From NCBI RefSeq assembly GCF_002854065.1, contig NZ_CP024152.1: a stretch of 64,000 bases of DNA. The stretch is one strand, 5' to 3'. Origin of the DNA: Escherichia coli. Lineage in GTDB: Bacteria > Pseudomonadota > Gammaproteobacteria > Enterobacterales > Enterobacteriaceae. Of the stretch, positions 59,097 through 64,000 are shown piece after piece; within the stretch, counting starts at the first letter, position 1, and every line of letters starts with the position of its first letter. Under the pieces are notes generated by a model. It was not told where the DNA came from and searched no databases. It saw only the letters and a list, made by a program, of their open reading frames with translations. Made by a program: the position numbers and the translations under genes.

Positions 59097-59876
59097 TTAT
59101 GGAATTCTTTTGAGCATAGACACCGCATCGGACTCAGGCATCGAAAACTGCACCCGGTGCCGTGCAGCCACATCCAGTGCAAACACCTTCGTGTAGACCT
59201 CCGTTGAGCTGATGGACTTATGCCCCATCAGACTCTGCAGGACCTTCAGCGGTATACCGGCATACAGCATATGCATCGCATAGGAATGGCGGAACGTATG
59301 TGGCGTGACCGGGACAGAGAACGTCACACCATCAGCGGCAGCGGCGGCAACCGCCTCCCCAATCCAGGTCCTGACCGTTCTGTCCGTCACTTCCCAGATC
59401 CGCGCTTTCTCTGTCCTGCCTGTTCGTTTATTACGCCGTTCCATGGGGATTTTCAGTGTGGCCACCATCGTCTGCAGCTGGCTGACGTACCAGGCGTCGG
59501 AGAGCGGAACCAGACGGTGAGTCTGCTGACCGGCGGGCATCCTTCCTGCCGTCCTGGCGGCTTTTTCTGTCCGCTGCTTCAGAGTGGCCAGTTGCACAAA
59601 CGGATACGGAGACGTGAGCGAAAAATCCCCCCGCGTCAGCGCCAGTGCTTCATTAATGCGCGCACCGGTGTTCCACAGTGTGGCCAGCAGCATTTTGCGG
59701 CGCAGATCCGGCACGTAATGGAGCAGGGCGCTCACTTCAGGGGCCAGCAGGTATTTTGGCAGTTCATCATGAACCATCGACATCTGGCGGAGTGCCAGCG
59801 CTGCCGGATAATCGATGGCAACAGGAAGCTGAGCGGCATCCCGGGCATGGTGGATCGGTGACGGCAGGTGCTGCAT
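59097..59876 (-). CDS. Tyrosine site-specific recombinase, probable multimer resolvase (259 aa)
   Basis: Catalytic motifs HTFRHSYA and LGHKSISSTEVYT (R...H-x-x-R...Y); ATG at 59876. Confidence 0.75.
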   Translation of the reverse strand: MQHLPSPIHHARDAAQLPVAIDYPAALALRQMSMVHDELPKYLLAPEVSALLHYVPDLRRKMLLATLWNTGARINEALALTRGDFSLTSPYPFVQLATLKQRTEKAARTAGRMPAGQQTHRLVPLSDAWYVSQLQTMVATLKIPMERRNKRTGRTEKARIWEVTDRTVRTWIGEAVAAAAADGVTFSVPVTPHTFRHSYAMHMLYAGIPLKVLQSLMGHKSISSTEVYTKVFALDVAARHRVQFSMPESDAVSMLKRIP

Positions 59877-59877
59877 A

Positions 59878-60291
59878 TCAGTGTTCACTCCACGGGGAAA
59901 CGTCGGGCAGTTTTTCCACAACACGGTACTTTCCCGGATAACGGAGCTGGTTACCGCCACGCGTCCAGACGGTGACAACAAAACCCCCTCCCTGGTTGTT
60001 TTCGGGGAGCAGGCGATCGCACTGCTCACTCAGCATGTGGATCACAAACGGCGCATCGCTGCCGTCTTCAAATACCAGTTCCAGCGCATCGCGGCCATTC
60101 AGCGTTCCCTTACTGATGATGACGTACTCAGCCCCCCGCATCTCCCTGAGTAAATGTTTTGCCGCATCCGGGACAAGCAGCCTGGCTGCGCCGGCATTCC
60201 AGCTGAGGTAGACATATCCGGCCTGCGCCTGTACAGACTGCCAGTAATCCGTTCTGGCGACAGCCTGACCTTCATTCTCAATAAAAAACAT
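59878..60291 (-). CDS. Hypothetical protein coupled to the resolvase gene (137 aa)
   Basis: AAGGAG RBS before the ATG at 60291; its stop overlaps the resolvase start (TGATATG). Confidence 0.45.
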   Translation of the reverse strand: MFFIENEGQAVARTDYWQSVQAQAGYVYLSWNAGAARLLVPDAAKHLLREMRGAEYVIISKGTLNGRDALELVFEDGSDAPFVIHMLSEQCDRLLPENNQGGGFVVTVWTRGGNQLRYPGKYRVVEKLPDVSPWSEH

Positions 60292-60859
60292 GGGTGACTC
60301 CTTTTTTCTTTTCCGGGCAGGGACGGTCATGCGATAACGTCATCCATCATCACTGCCCTTACCGTCACGCCGTCAGATAACATCATGCCGTTATCATCAT
60401 CACCATGATAACAAGCATCCATATAACCACGCCGTTAAATTACCGGAGAGCCGTTTCCGTCAGATCCGACTTTCCGAAATATCACAACTTTCCGGAAGTG
60501 TACCACGCTGAGAAAATCATCATATCGCTGTTTTCCGCCCCTGCGCGGCGCATCACAGGTCAGGGAGATGACACAACATATAGTGTCATCAGCAGCTGAA
60601 TTCAGCACTACATGTTGTGCTGACAGGAGGTGGCGTTATGTGGGGGAAGAGGAAGATCCGTCTCCGCCGGAAACCGGATCTGCGCGACGGGAAACGGGCA
60701 AGTGATATGATAATTGAGCAATACACACAAAATCATATCAGATATGATTTTCATCATTGATGATAAAACCATATATGATATTATCAGAAATCAGGAGCAC
60801 ACAAATCATGCGGGATATTATTTTTACCTGTCAGAACATTATCAGATGGAGCGTGCAGG

Positions 60860-61114
60860 ATGGATGAAGAAAGGGTGTTTTCACTCAGCTATGAGCAACT
60901 AACCCGAATAGCGGAAAAAAATATCCGTGAATGTGGGCTGGACAACCAGAGCGCCAGGTGTATCAGTGAACTGAAGGCCTCAGCTCTGCTGTGGTTGTGG
61001 TATGAACTGGCCATTCATGGTGCGCCACAGAACAATCACGCACAGGCCCGGGAACGCATCGATACCGATTATCAGCGCCTCAAAAAACTCATCTGGTCGG
61101 AGGGTGACAGTTAA
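60860..61114 (+). CDS. Hypothetical protein (84 aa)
   Basis: ORF translationally coupled (TAATG) to the downstream 196-aa gene. Confidence 0.35.
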   Translation: MDEERVFSLSYEQLTRIAEKNIRECGLDNQSARCISELKASALLWLWYELAIHGAPQNNHAQARERIDTDYQRLKKLIWSEGDS

Positions 61115-61704
61115 TGACTCAGAGCCGCCGACCGTCGCCACTGCAGCGGAGAGTGCTGATTGTGCTGGCTGCGCTTGATGAAAAACGGCCGGGCCCCGTG
61201 CTGACGCGGGACCTGGAACGGGTGCTGGAGCGAAGCGGGGAAGCCCCGGTCTACGGGCCAAACCTGCGCGCCTCCTGCCGTCGTCTGGAGGATGCCGGCT
61301 GGCTGCGTACCCTGCGCGCCCCGAACCTGCAGCTGGCAGTGGAGCTGACGGACGCCGGCCGGGCCGTGGCACAGCCTCTGCTGCTGGCAGAACAGGACCG
61401 CCTCCGGGCAGAACAGCGTGCGGCAGAAGTCGTCGTACTGCCGCTGGTCCCGGCAGCAGGTCTGCCCGCAGACGGCACTTCTGCCACTGATCTGGCGGTG
61501 GAGCTGAACGGCATAACGTATCAGGCCTGCCGCGGGGATTTTGTGGTGCGTCTCGACGGCAGCACCTGTCTGCAGTTATGGAATAAAGAAGGCAGGGTGG
61601 TACGCCGGGAGGGCGATCCGCTGGAAGTGGCGCAGTGGCTGCAGGCCTGTCATGACGCAGGAATAGAGGTTCGCGTACAGATAAATGAAAGTGCCGCTCC
61701 GTAA
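61114..61704 (+). CDS. GC-rich hypothetical protein with winged-helix-like N-terminus (196 aa)
   Basis: GGAGGG RBS; N-terminal RRVLIVLAALDEKRPGPVLTRDLERVLERSG resembles a wHTH; about 65% GC versus neighbours. Confidence 0.45.
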   Translation: MTQSRRPSPLQRRVLIVLAALDEKRPGPVLTRDLERVLERSGEAPVYGPNLRASCRRLEDAGWLRTLRAPNLQLAVELTDAGRAVAQPLLLAEQDRLRAEQRAAEVVVLPLVPAAGLPADGTSATDLAVELNGITYQACRGDFVVRLDGSTCLQLWNKEGRVVRREGDPLEVAQWLQACHDAGIEVRVQINESAAP

Positions 61705-61723: not shown

Positions 61724-62071
61724 TTACACATCATCCCATGGTGGCAGCCGGTTAACTTTCCTGCGCCACCAGTGGAAAGAGGCCATGCACAGTCCGAACA
61801 AAAAACCACCCGTGATACTTATAATAATGGCCTCACCTGCCACCATTCCTGACGGCCCCCAGTAGGTAAACCACATTACACATCCCCAGGAAATGCCCCA
61901 TAAGCCCCCCGTCAGCACCGTGACCTGCCAGAACGGCATAAAGGGTAATGGCGGAAGCCGGATACCCAGCCGCCATAGAATACGCAGAAGAGGAGGGGCA
62001 TAATTGCTCCGCCACATCTTTTTGCTGTCCATCAGGGCAATGGCCCGGGCTTTTTTCTGCTCAAAGGTCAC
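61724..62071 (-). CDS. Hypothetical integral membrane protein (115 aa)
   Basis: Three predicted TM helices, Trp-rich; adjacent to the colicin immunity gene. Confidence 0.4.
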   Translation of the reverse strand: MTFEQKKARAIALMDSKKMWRSNYAPPLLRILWRLGIRLPPLPFMPFWQVTVLTGGLWGISWGCVMWFTYWGPSGMVAGEAIIISITGGFLFGLCMASFHWWRRKVNRLPPWDDV

Positions 62072-62199
62072 AGGAGCACCTCCGTTCCATGATGTAAACG
62101 TGACACAGCTTATTGTTATTGATTATTATTATCATGCTGTGGTTATGTTGTCATGCATCAGTACACTGACAAAAGTGCAAAAGAAAGGAAAACTGGCAG

Positions 62200-62535
62200 A
62201 TGAACAGAAAATATTATTTTAATAATATGTGGTGGGGATGGGTGACGGGGGGATATATGCTGTATATGTCATGGGATTATGAGTTTAAATACAGATTACT
62301 GTTCTGGTGTATTTCTCTCTGCGGAATGGTTTTGTATCCGGTTGCAAAATGGTATATTGAAGATACAGCTCTGAAATTTACCCGGCCTGATTTCTGGAAC
62401 AGCGGTTTTTTTGCTGATACACCTGGAAAAATGGGGTTGCTTGCGGTTTATACGGGTACTGTTTTCATATTATCTCTTCCGTTAAGTATGATATATATTC
62501 TTTCTGTTATTATAAAAAGGCTGTCTGTAAGATAG
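62200..62535 (+). CDS. Colicin Ia/Ib-type immunity protein (111 aa)
   Basis: Starts MNRKYYFNNMWWGW; polytopic membrane protein convergent with the colicin gene; 111 aa fits colicin Ia immunity better than Ib. Confidence 0.7.
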   Translation: MNRKYYFNNMWWGWVTGGYMLYMSWDYEFKYRLLFWCISLCGMVLYPVAKWYIEDTALKFTRPDFWNSGFFADTPGKMGLLAVYTGTVFILSLPLSMIYILSVIIKRLSVR

Positions 62536-62556
62536 ACAGCCTGTCTTATATTTTAT
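62519..62556. terminator. Bidirectional terminator between the immunity and colicin genes
   Basis: GGCTGTCTG-TAAGATA-GACAGCC hairpin with T-rich flanks. Confidence 0.5.
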
Positions 62557-64000
62557 TTAAATACCCCAGAACTTATTCGCTTTTTCCACAAGCGATTCAT
62601 CAATCAGCGCACCGGTGACAGCCATCAGTAAACCATACCCGATAATGCCTAAAGCGCTTCCGGTAAGAATACTGAAGACCAGTGCCACAAGAGCCGTTGC
62701 GGCATTGCCTGCTATGATGGTTTCTGTTTTAACAAAAAGAGGACGCCAGTTCTCTGTCCGGACAGCCTTACCAAACTCAGTGATCCAGTCAGCAAGACTT
62801 GTAAATTTTCCTGCATATCCCAGTCCCCGACTGAATCTGTTCAGATTAGACGATATATCAGACAGCTTCACAGACTCAAGGGCTGCGGCAATCGCTGCAC
62901 GATCTTTTGCATTAATTTTTTTGTTAATGTCAGCCCGGTACTTTTCATACGTTTTTAATGCCTCTTCAACATTACGTATTTTCTTCCCTTTAGCCTGCCC
63001 GGCCATCTCTCTGGCTAACTGCTCAGCTTTTGCACCATATTTTTCTGAAACTGATTTCAGGAACTCTGTTGTGAAATTAATTGCGTCTTTCGTTGCCTTC
63101 AGTTCATCCTGTTTTCTTTTCTCTTCCGCTATCTTCTGATTGATGCCGGAAAGCTGGTTACGGATATTCTCTTTTTCCTTCAACAGGGCATTAAGAGCGT
63201 CATTTGCATGCTTTTGCTCATTTGTTCTGGCACTGAGGTTATTTCTCGCCGAATTTACCGCAGATTCAGCAGAGGTGATTTTATTTCTGGCATCAAGCAA
63301 TCTTTGCCGTAACTTATCCCATTCAGCAACTTCAGCATTATAAATTTTCTTGTCACCTTCCACATCCTCTGTCACCACCGGATTCCGGTCATTCAGAATA
63401 TTGCGTTTATAGTCCAGACCGGAATGGCTCAGAAGATAATTCAGGTTTGCACGGTTATCGATGACTGCGCTGGTTGTGATTTTTATCGTACCGGCAAATC
63501 TCGGATCACCGCTCACAACAATAGAATGATTTGTTGATGAACGCCCCGGGAATTTTTCAGGGGAAACTATCGTTTTGCCGTCAGGCGTGTTTTTCTGTTG
63601 CGTCAGCTGTTGTTCAGCTCTGGTTAATGCATTACGGGCCGTGTTAAGCGATTCCGTCACTGAACTGAGTTTATTCCGGGCCTCTGAAATGGCCCTGTCA
63701 TTCCGTGTCTGCTGCCCGAGCAGACGGGCCTGTTGTGCATCAAGAACGGCAAGGGCTGCCCCGCCATTTTTTTCCAGCTCTGACAACCGGGTGTCCAGAA
63801 TACCTTTTCTGCGCTCGTATTCAGCAAGCATATCAGCGGCCTTCTTGTCTGCGTTCTGCGCATCCTTCTGCCGTTTTTCAGCCTGTTCGATTAACGACCT
63901 GGCCTCCCGGGGAGATATACGAAGAGAATCAGCATCAGCAAACAGCATCCGGCTCTCTGTATGCAGCCGGAGGGCGTCATATCCGGCGATTTCAGTACGG
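62557..64000 (-). CDS. cia: Pore-forming colicin Ia/Ib, C-terminal ~480 aa (5-prime end beyond the window)
   Basis: Ends ...ALVALVFSILTGSALGIIGYGLLMAVTGALIDESLVEKANKFWGI (channel-forming hairpin); the reading frame stays open to the window edge. Ia versus Ib not resolved. Confidence 0.7.
   Translation of the reverse strand, partial: RTEIAGYDALRLHTESRMLFADADSLRISPREARSLIEQAEKRQKDAQNADKKAADMLAEYERRKGILDTRLSELEKNGGAALAVLDAQQARLLGQQTRNDRAISEARNKLSSVTESLNTARNALTRAEQQLTQQKNTPDGKTIVSPEKFPGRSSTNHSIVVSGDPRFAGTIKITTSAVIDNRANLNYLLSHSGLDYKRNILNDRNPVVTEDVEGDKKIYNAEVAEWDKLRQRLLDARNKITSAESAVNSARNNLSARTNEQKHANDALNALLKEKENIRNQLSGINQKIAEEKRKQDELKATKDAINFTTEFLKSVSEKYGAKAEQLAREMAGQAKGKKIRNVEEALKTYEKYRADINKKINAKDRAAIAAALESVKLSDISSNLNRFSRGLGYAGKFTSLADWITEFGKAVRTENWRPLFVKTETIIAGNAATALVALVFSILTGSALGIIGYGLLMAVTGALIDESLVEKANKFWGI

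What the first reader, a model, noticed from the sequence alone, without database searches (positions are those of the whole stretch)
62200..64000. Colicin Ia/Ib locus cut by the window end
A convergent immunity gene (111 aa, MNRKYYFNNMWWGW) and a pore-forming colicin C-terminus (...EKANKFWGI) share a bidirectional terminator. The colicin N-terminal receptor and translocation domains, and any SOS box, are outside the window. The 111-aa immunity length points to Ia rather than Ib, but I cannot resolve that from memory alone.
Basis: partly seen in the sequence, partly recalled or inferred. Interest (0 to 1): 0.25.

Follow-up and report, generated by a model that had tools for sequence, protein, structure and literature searches.

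The report
Colicin Ia toxin–immunity gene pair
This is the well-known colicin Ia toxin gene, cut at codon 147 by the window end, with its own immunity gene on an ordinary IncI-type conjugative plasmid; it is identical to hundreds of public records.

Summary
A 111-aa ORF (62200-62535, +) converges on an open frame (62557 to beyond 64000, -) that ends ...EKANKFWGI. The two stop codons are 21 bp apart. A strong hairpin (62518-62542) sits between them.

The Ia/Ib question is resolved: it is colicin Ia.
- The 480 codons in the window are residues 147-626 of 626.
- They are 477/478 identical to the colicin Ia crystal sequence (1CII) and 100% identical to annotated colicin Ia in IncI plasmids.
- Against colicin Ib of ColIb-P9, residues 147-445 are about 97% identical, but the channel domain is only 40% identical.
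- The immunity protein is letter-for-letter Swiss-Prot IMMI_ECOLX (colicin-Ia immunity). It is only 25% identical to the 115-aa Ib immunity protein.
- The Ia/Ib-specific DNA is a 936-bp cassette (62167-63102).

Only residues 1-146 (which carry the TonB box) and the LexA/Fur-regulated promoter lie outside.

The whole window is 100% colinear with E. coli plasmid NZ_AP021916.1, which carries the intact gene. The locus is already known and of low interest.

The parts
62557..64000 (-). cia, the colicin Ia structural gene, 3' part. Codons 147-626 plus the stop codon (62557-62559). The 5' end (codons 1-146) is cut off by the window end.
   Evidence: Open frame of 480 codons. 477/478 identical to 1CII colicin Ia, E 3.5e-301. 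480/480 identical to WP_001582575.1.
63283..63594 (-). Central receptor-binding (R) domain, residues 282-385, which binds the outer-membrane receptor Cir.
   Evidence: Pfam PF11504 Colicin_Ia, E 2.5e-51, at fragment 136-207. 105/105 identical over the aligned residues to the R-domain chain 2hdi_B.
62560..63087 (-). C-terminal channel-forming domain, residues 451-626. It contains the hydrophobic helical hairpin at about residues 582-616 (window 62590-62694).
   Evidence: Pfam PF01024 colicin pore-forming domain, E 1e-49. Hydropathy peaks. 100% identical to Ia but 71/176 to Ib.
62200..62535 (+). iia/imm, the colicin Ia immunity gene, 111 aa. It encodes a small inner-membrane protein.
   Evidence: Exact match to UniRef/Swiss-Prot IMMI_ECOLX, 'Colicin-Ia immunity protein'. 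Pfam PF03526, 30.9 bits against a cut-off of 25. 25% identical to Ib immunity.
62518..62542 (.). Shared hairpin between the convergent genes, a likely bidirectional intrinsic terminator. It overlaps the last 5 codons and the stop codon of imm.
   Evidence: Terminator-like on both strands. dG -18.2 and -17.9 kcal/mol, z -5.3 and -7.3. The Ib cassette has an unrelated 9-bp hairpin in the same position.
62167..63102 (.). Type-specific (Ia versus Ib) cassette: the channel domain from about codon 446, the hairpin, the immunity gene and 33 bp upstream of its ATG.
   Evidence: blastn against ColIb-P9 gives 97.7% identity for 64000-63103, no DNA alignment for 63102-62167, and 91.9% for 62166-60664. 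GC is 41% against 51% for the window. Alignment A2.
62100..62129 (+). Candidate sigma-70 promoter for imm (GTGACA-18-TATTAT). It lies in the stretch that is identical in Ia and Ib plasmids.
   Evidence: Consensus scan, 10 of 12 matches. Identical in ColIb-P9. This is a consensus match only, and the count of such sites is no higher than in shuffled sequence.

Best explanation
This is the cia-imm module of an IncI-type conjugative plasmid. It consists of the colicin Ia structural gene (residues 147-626 lie in the window) and its cognate immunity gene, arranged tail to tail.

Shown here:
- Sequence identity of both proteins to the colicin Ia references.
- An intact reading frame as far as the window edge.
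- A complete receptor-binding domain and a complete channel domain.
- A stable hairpin shared by the two 3' ends.
- A 936-bp cassette that alone distinguishes Ia from Ib.

Inferred from established knowledge of colicin Ia:
- The R domain binds the outer-membrane protein Cir.
- The N-terminal T domain, with its TonB box (outside the window), drives TonB-dependent import.
- The C-terminal domain inserts into the inner membrane as a voltage-gated channel and kills the cell by depolarising it.
- The immunity protein sits in the producer's inner membrane and blocks only the Ia channel domain.
- cia is transcribed from a LexA- and Fur-repressed promoter, which lies just outside the window and is seen in colinear records.
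- imm is transcribed from its own promoter on the opposite strand, and both transcripts stop at the shared hairpin.
- There is no lysis gene, as is usual for group B colicins.
For: -: open frame of 480 codons.
- 1CII colicin Ia 477/478 identical (E 3.5e-301); 2HDI R domain identical; the Ib channel (8IOM) scores only E 9e-53.
- PF11504, PF01024 and PF03526 all above their gathering cut-offs.
- against colicin Ib, 134/135, 103/104 and 54/60 identical up to residue 445, then 72/181.
- immunity Ia versus Ib, 25% identity.
- 480/480 identical to annotated colicin Ia.
- the immunity protein is IMMI_ECOLX.
- the hairpin.
- an analogous hairpin in the unrelated Ib cassette sequence.
- the window is 100% colinear with NZ_AP021916.1, where cia is an intact 626-codon gene flanked by yagA and imm.
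- in colinear records the upstream region carries TTGACA, a Fur-box-like AATGATAATCACTATCATC and a LexA-box-like CTGTATATGTATCCAT, 99% conserved between Ia and Ib plasmids.
- PMC4675545: LexA and Fur control of the near-identical Ib promoter.
- PMC2585860: colicin Ia is 626 aa, with the channel in the C-terminal ~177 residues.
Against: - The first 146 codons, the TonB box and the promoter are not in the window. Their integrity in this particular molecule is inferred from a 100% colinear public record.
- One residue differs from the 1CII chain (His304 here, Asp in 1CII). 2HDI and colicin Ib also have His, so this looks like a peculiarity of the 1CII entry.
- On the + strand the T-tract after the hairpin is interrupted (GTCTTATATTTTATTT), so termination of imm may be less efficient than termination of cia.
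- The imm promoter is only a consensus match.
- No activity, immunity or termination was measured.
Confidence: 0.96

Rival explanations
1. It is the colicin Ib locus (cib-imm) rather than Ia.
For: Residues 147-445 are about 97% identical to colicin Ib of ColIb-P9, and the plasmid backbone is the same type.
Against: The channel domain is 71/176 identical to Ib but 100% identical to Ia. The immunity protein has 111 aa, is identical to IMMI_ECOLX and is 25% identical to the 115-aa IMMJ_ECOLX. There is no DNA-level alignment across 62167-63102.
Confidence: 0.005
2. It is a decayed or orphan module. The colicin gene would be disrupted just beyond the window end, leaving an immunity gene that only protects its host against other strains' colicin Ia.
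For: Such states seem to exist. Of the 961 complete E. coli genomes that hit the cassette, only 396 cover at least 80% of it. An IncF plasmid also shows an Ia-like immunity gene with no annotated colicin beside it.
Against: All 480 codons in the window are open and identical to the functional reference. The window is 100% colinear over all 50 kb tested with NZ_AP021916.1, where the gene is an intact 626 codons.
Confidence: 0.03
3. The 62518-62542 palindrome is not a terminator. It could be a chance or recombination-related inverted repeat at the cassette junction.
For: It lies inside the type-specific cassette. The + strand T-tract is imperfect. The scan finds about as many terminator-like sites as in shuffled sequence (4 found against a mean of 2.7).
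Against: The stem is perfect, with z-scores of -5.3 and -7.3. A run of five T follows it on the cia strand. The Ib cassette, whose sequence is unrelated, has a 9-bp GC-rich hairpin at exactly the same place between its convergent stop codons.
Confidence: 0.1

Closest known systems
Colicin Ia (cia; PDB 1CII, 2HDI; Swiss-Prot CEIA_ECOLX) with colicin-Ia immunity protein (IMMI_ECOLX)
   Same: It is identical. 477/478 match 1CII, the R domain is identical to 2HDI over the 105 aligned residues, and the immunity protein matches IMMI_ECOLX exactly. The gene order and convergent orientation are the same as in annotated IncI plasmids.
   Different: Nothing of substance differs. The window simply lacks codons 1-146 and the promoter. 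His304 replaces the Asp of the 1CII chain.
Colicin Ib locus of ColIb-P9 (NC_002122; cib, IMMJ_ECOLX; channel domain PDB 8IOM)
   Same: The plasmid backbone and promoter region are the same (99% identical). The first ~445 residues are nearly identical, so the Cir/TonB entry route should be the same. The convergent layout and the position of the hairpin also match.
   Different: The channel domain is only 40% identical. The immunity protein is 25% identical and has 115 rather than 111 aa. The 936-bp cassette does not align at the DNA level.
Other E1-type pore-forming colicins and pyocin S5 (PDB 2I88, 6THK)
   Same: They share the PF01024 channel fold (E 2.8e-32 to colicin E1, 1.8e-46 to pyocin S5). 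The immunity protein falls in the colicin E1 immunity family PF03526.
   Different: Their receptor and translocation domains differ. Colicin E1 is a group A colicin that uses the Tol system and has a lysis gene (background knowledge).

Membership tests
Colicin Ia | Near-identity to the reference colicin Ia sequence over the channel domain, which is the part that sets Ia apart from Ib | tested here: met
   Residues 446-626 are 100% identical to annotated colicin Ia and to 1CII. Against Ib they are 72/181 identical.
Colicin Ia | Central Cir-binding R domain (residues 282-385) | tested here: met
   PF11504, E 2.5e-51. Identical over the 105 aligned residues to the R-domain chain 2hdi_B, deposited as Colicin-Ia.
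Colicin Ia | N-terminal translocation domain with a TonB box | not testable with these tools
   Codons 1-146 lie outside the window. In records that are 100% colinear, the N-terminus reads MSDPVRIT...GHEIMAVD.
Colicin Ia | Cognate Ia immunity gene adjacent and convergent | tested here: met
   The ORF at 62200-62535 is exactly IMMI_ECOLX, and the stop codons are 21 bp apart.
Colicin Ia | SOS (LexA) and iron (Fur) regulated promoter | not testable with these tools
   It is outside the window. The boxes are visible in colinear records and are 99% conserved with the studied Ib promoter (PMC4675545).
Colicin Ia | Killing of cir+ tonB+ cells, blocked by Ia immunity but not by Ib immunity | not testable with these tools
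   This needs an overlay or cross-immunity assay.
Colicin Ib | Ib-type channel domain and the 115-aa Ib immunity protein | tested here: not met
   40% and 25% identity respectively.
Colicin E1-type immunity proteins (Pfam PF03526) | Profile match above the gathering score | tested here: met
   30.9 bits against a cut-off of 25, E 2.5e-7.
Colicin E1-type immunity proteins (Pfam PF03526) | Three transmembrane helices | tested here: inconclusive
   A simple Kyte-Doolittle scan finds two clear segments (about 31-51 and 87-105). The aromatic N-terminal stretch (about 10-28) falls below threshold. The Ib immunity protein shows three.
Group B colicin operon (no lysis gene) | No lysis lipoprotein gene downstream of the colicin gene | tested here: met
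   On the colicin strand, the only ORF of 30 aa or more after the cia stop is the DUF6404 gene. The annotation of colinear plasmids lists no lysis gene.
Bidirectional intrinsic terminator | GC-rich stem followed by a T-run on both strands | tested here: met
   One search finds it on both strands. Stability is given. The T-run is clean on the cia strand and interrupted on the imm strand.
Bidirectional intrinsic terminator | Transcripts actually end there | not testable with these tools
   This needs 3' end mapping.

The most novel reading that the evidence does not exclude
The neighbouring DUF6404 gene (61724-62071) encodes a small membrane protein. It is transcribed divergently from imm across a 128-bp region that Ia and Ib plasmids share. 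It could be a functional accessory of the colicin module, for example in release of a colicin that has no lysis gene, or in extra self-protection.

The evidence does not exclude this but leans against it. The gene is frameshifted in the colicin Ib type plasmid ColIb-P9. Its ~50%-identical homologs on Klebsiella IncFII plasmids sit after finO with no colicin nearby.
Probability: 0.03. Interest if true: 0.35.

Novelty: already known. Interest (0 to 1): 0.04.

Why it matters
It matters little beyond correct annotation. Colicin Ia and its immunity protein have been sequenced, crystallised and studied mechanistically for decades, and this copy is identical to the references. It is useful to know that the plasmid gives its host a Cir/TonB-targeted weapon against competing Enterobacteriaceae together with Ia-specific self-protection, because this affects strain competition in the gut. 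The clean 936-bp boundary of the Ia/Ib cassette is a neat illustration of how colicin types differ by exchange of a channel-plus-immunity module. That principle is already established.

Tried and rejected
- Colicin Ib identity was rejected by direct alignment to ColIb-P9.
- NCBIfam gave no specific model for any of the five proteins tested, only weak coiled-coil noise such as SMC for the colicin helices.
- The accession AB021078 is not in the collections. The RefSeq copy NC_002122 was used instead.
- One structure-search call had a frame error and was not repeated, because one search had already answered the question.
- The Cascales 2007 colicin review (PMC1847374) is not held. General statements about group A/B operons and immunity mechanisms therefore rest on PMC4675545 and on background knowledge.
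- I tested whether DUF6404 resembles the Ib immunity protein, since both are 115 aa. There is no similarity, E 0.2.
- I tested whether DUF6404 travels with colicins. It does not do so consistently.
- I did not run structure prediction, large homology searches or metagenome scans. A solved structure of the same protein exists, so they were not needed.

Full report
**Observation**

The region was read directly and its ORFs were listed. A 111-aa ORF starting MNRKYYFNNMWWGW occupies 62200-62535 on the + strand. On the - strand, a frame with its stop codon at 62557-62559 stays open through all 480 codons up to base 63999 and ends ...EKANKFWGI. The ORF listing shows it as 463 aa from an internal ATG, but no stop codon lies between that ATG and the window edge.

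The two stop codons are 21 bp apart. A perfect hairpin at 62518-62542 covers the last codons and the stop of the 111-aa gene. It scores as terminator-like on both strands. It folds at -18.2 kcal/mol (+ strand) and -17.9 kcal/mol (- strand), with z-scores of -5.3 and -7.3, and none of 200 shuffles folded as well on either strand.

**Identity of the colicin**

The 480-residue fragment matches PDB 1CII (colicin Ia) at 477 of 478 aligned residues, E 3.5e-301. It is identical over the 105 aligned residues to chain B of 2HDI, the colicin Ia R domain. The single difference from 1CII is His304, where the 1CII chain has Asp. 2HDI and colicin Ib both have His at this position.

Pfam places PF11504 (Colicin_Ia, the central receptor-binding domain) at fragment 136-207 and PF01024 (colicin pore-forming domain) at fragment 294-476. 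Both are far above their cut-offs. The fragment is 480/480 identical to residues 147-626 of WP_001582575.1, the 626-aa colicin of Salmonella plasmid pSAN1-1727 and of E. coli plasmid NZ_AP021916.1.

**Ia versus Ib**

I fetched ColIb-P9 (NC_002122) as the colicin Ib reference. Against its 626-aa colicin, identity by segment is as follows:

| Residues | Identical |
|---|---|
| 147-281 | 134/135 |
| 282-385 | 103/104 |
| 386-445 | 54/60 |
| 446-626 | 72/181 |
| 451-626 (channel domain) | 71/176 (40%) |

The 111-aa protein is only 25% identical to the 115-aa ColIb-P9 immunity protein. An exact-sequence look-up shows that the 111-aa protein is UniRef/Swiss-Prot IMMI_ECOLX, "Colicin-Ia immunity protein". 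The 115-aa protein is IMMJ_ECOLX, "Colicin-Ib immunity protein".

**Cassette boundaries**

blastn of the window against ColIb-P9 gives three segments:

| Window coordinates | Identity to ColIb-P9 |
|---|---|
| 64000-63103 | 97.7% |
| 63102-62167 | no DNA alignment |
| 62166-60664 | 91.9% |

The type-specific unit is thus a 936-bp cassette. It runs from about codon 446 of the colicin, through the hairpin and the immunity gene, to 33 bp upstream of the immunity ATG. Its GC content is 41%, against 51% for the whole window.

The stretch upstream of the break is identical in the Ia and Ib plasmids. It contains a promoter-like site, GTGACA-18-TATTAT, at 62100-62129. Both immunity genes would therefore be served by the same upstream region. 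This promoter assignment is only a consensus match.

The Ib cassette is unrelated in sequence, yet it carries its own 9-bp GC-rich hairpin (GCCCTTTCA...TGAAAGGGC) at the same position, overlapping the 3' end of its immunity gene. This supports a functional role as a terminator for both convergent transcripts.

**What is and is not in the window**

That is wrong for the receptor-binding domain, which is central in colicin Ia (residues 282-385) and lies at window 63283-63594. The parts that are outside are:
- codons 1-146, which carry the TonB box; in colinear records the sequence reads ...GHEIMAVD;
- the promoter.

In pSAN1-1727, NZ_AP021916.1 and ColIb-P9 the 222 bp upstream of the ATG are 99% identical. 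They contain TTGACA, a Fur-box-like AATGATAATCACTATCATC just upstream of it, and CTGTATATGTATCCAT, a LexA-box-like sequence, downstream. PMC4675545 reports that the Ib promoter is repressed by both LexA and Fur. Given 99% identity, the same regulation is inferred for Ia.

**Context**

The window is an IncI-type conjugative plasmid backbone. Window 1-25000 and 39001-64000 are both 100% identical and colinear with NZ_AP021916.1, an 87,852-bp E. coli plasmid typed IncI-gamma/K1, MOBP, MPF_I. Its annotation shows, in order, the tra/trb/nik transfer genes, the leading region (ssb, psiB, ardA), umuDC-like genes, parM, a ParA-family gene, an integrase, then the DUF6404 gene, imm and the colicin gene, followed beyond the window by yagA. 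No lysis gene is present. This fits a group B colicin.

The module is very common:
- 2,951 plasmid records match the 2.3-kb query, 297 of them at 99% identity or more.
- 961 of 5,426 complete E. coli genomes match the cassette. Of the 1,028 matching places, 1,015 are on plasmids.

**Mechanism**

Shown here:
- identity to the structurally and functionally characterised colicin Ia and its immunity protein;
- intact R and channel domains;
- the convergent layout with a shared hairpin.

Inferred from established work on colicin Ia (background knowledge; PMC2585860 for the channel domain; PMC4675545 for Cir/TonB-dependent entry of the near-identical Ib and for regulation):
- The R domain docks on Cir.
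- The T domain engages TonB for import.
- The C-terminal ten-helix bundle inserts its hydrophobic hairpin (about residues 582-616) into the inner membrane and opens a voltage-gated channel.
- The immunity protein is a small inner-membrane protein of the colicin E1 immunity family (PF03526). It neutralises only the Ia channel domain, which is why the channel and immunity genes co-vary as one cassette.

**Side question: DUF6404**

The 115-aa gene at 61724-62071 (-) matches PF19942 (E 1e-37). It diverges from imm across 128 bp that carry back-to-back promoter-like sites. I checked whether it belongs to the colicin module.
- It is unrelated to the Ib immunity protein.
- It is frameshifted in ColIb-P9.
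- Its ~50%-identical homologs on about 950 Klebsiella and Serratia IncFII plasmids sit directly after finO with no adjacent colicin.

It looks like a plasmid backbone gene of unknown function rather than a colicin accessory.

**Verdict**

This is a correctly spotted, entirely ordinary and already known locus: colicin Ia plus its immunity gene on an IncI plasmid, truncated only by the window boundary.

Noticed in passing
window 61724-62071 (- strand): DUF6404 family gene (115 aa, at least one clear TM segment), transcribed divergently from imm. It is frameshifted in ColIb-P9. Homologs at ~50% identity sit after finO on about 950 Klebsiella/Serratia IncFII plasmids with no colicin nearby. Function unknown; it appears to be a backbone gene.
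   Followed up: partly
window 60661-60664; L002 12068-15630: This is a variable-region junction. Relative to this window, ColIb-P9 carries about 3.5 kb of extra DNA here (a DUF4238 gene and two hypothetical genes). The flanks are 92-99% identical.
   Followed up: no
window 60700-60830: An AT-rich cluster of palindromic repeats lies in the gene-free gap upstream of the 84-aa and 196-aa hypothetical genes (60860-61704). It comprises three copies of AAATCATATCAGATATGATTTT-like units and overlapping inverted repeats. It could be an operator or a recombination site.
   Followed up: no
window 60860-61114 and 61114-61704 (+ strand): Two overlapping hypothetical genes (84 aa and 196 aa) have no Pfam or NCBIfam match. 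They are conserved next to the colicin module in both Ia and Ib IncI plasmids.
   Followed up: partly
L006 (NZ_CP141101.1 121317-121652), outside the window: An E. coli IncF plasmid carries an Ia-like immunity gene and the DUF6404 gene but no annotated colicin. More than half of the E. coli genomes that hit the cassette cover less than 80% of it. Orphan immunity genes or decayed cia copies may be common. The PLSDB gene table omits pseudogenes, so this was not resolved.
   Followed up: no
window 63526-63528 (codon 304 of cia): His304 here, and also in 2HDI and in colicin Ib, where the 1CII chain has Asp. This is probably a peculiarity of the 1CII entry rather than a natural variant.
   Followed up: partly
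window 59097-60029 (- strand): the ORF listing gives a 310-aa GTG-start ORF for the site-specific integrase, whereas public annotations aa (780 bp). This is only a start-codon ambiguity.
   Followed up: no
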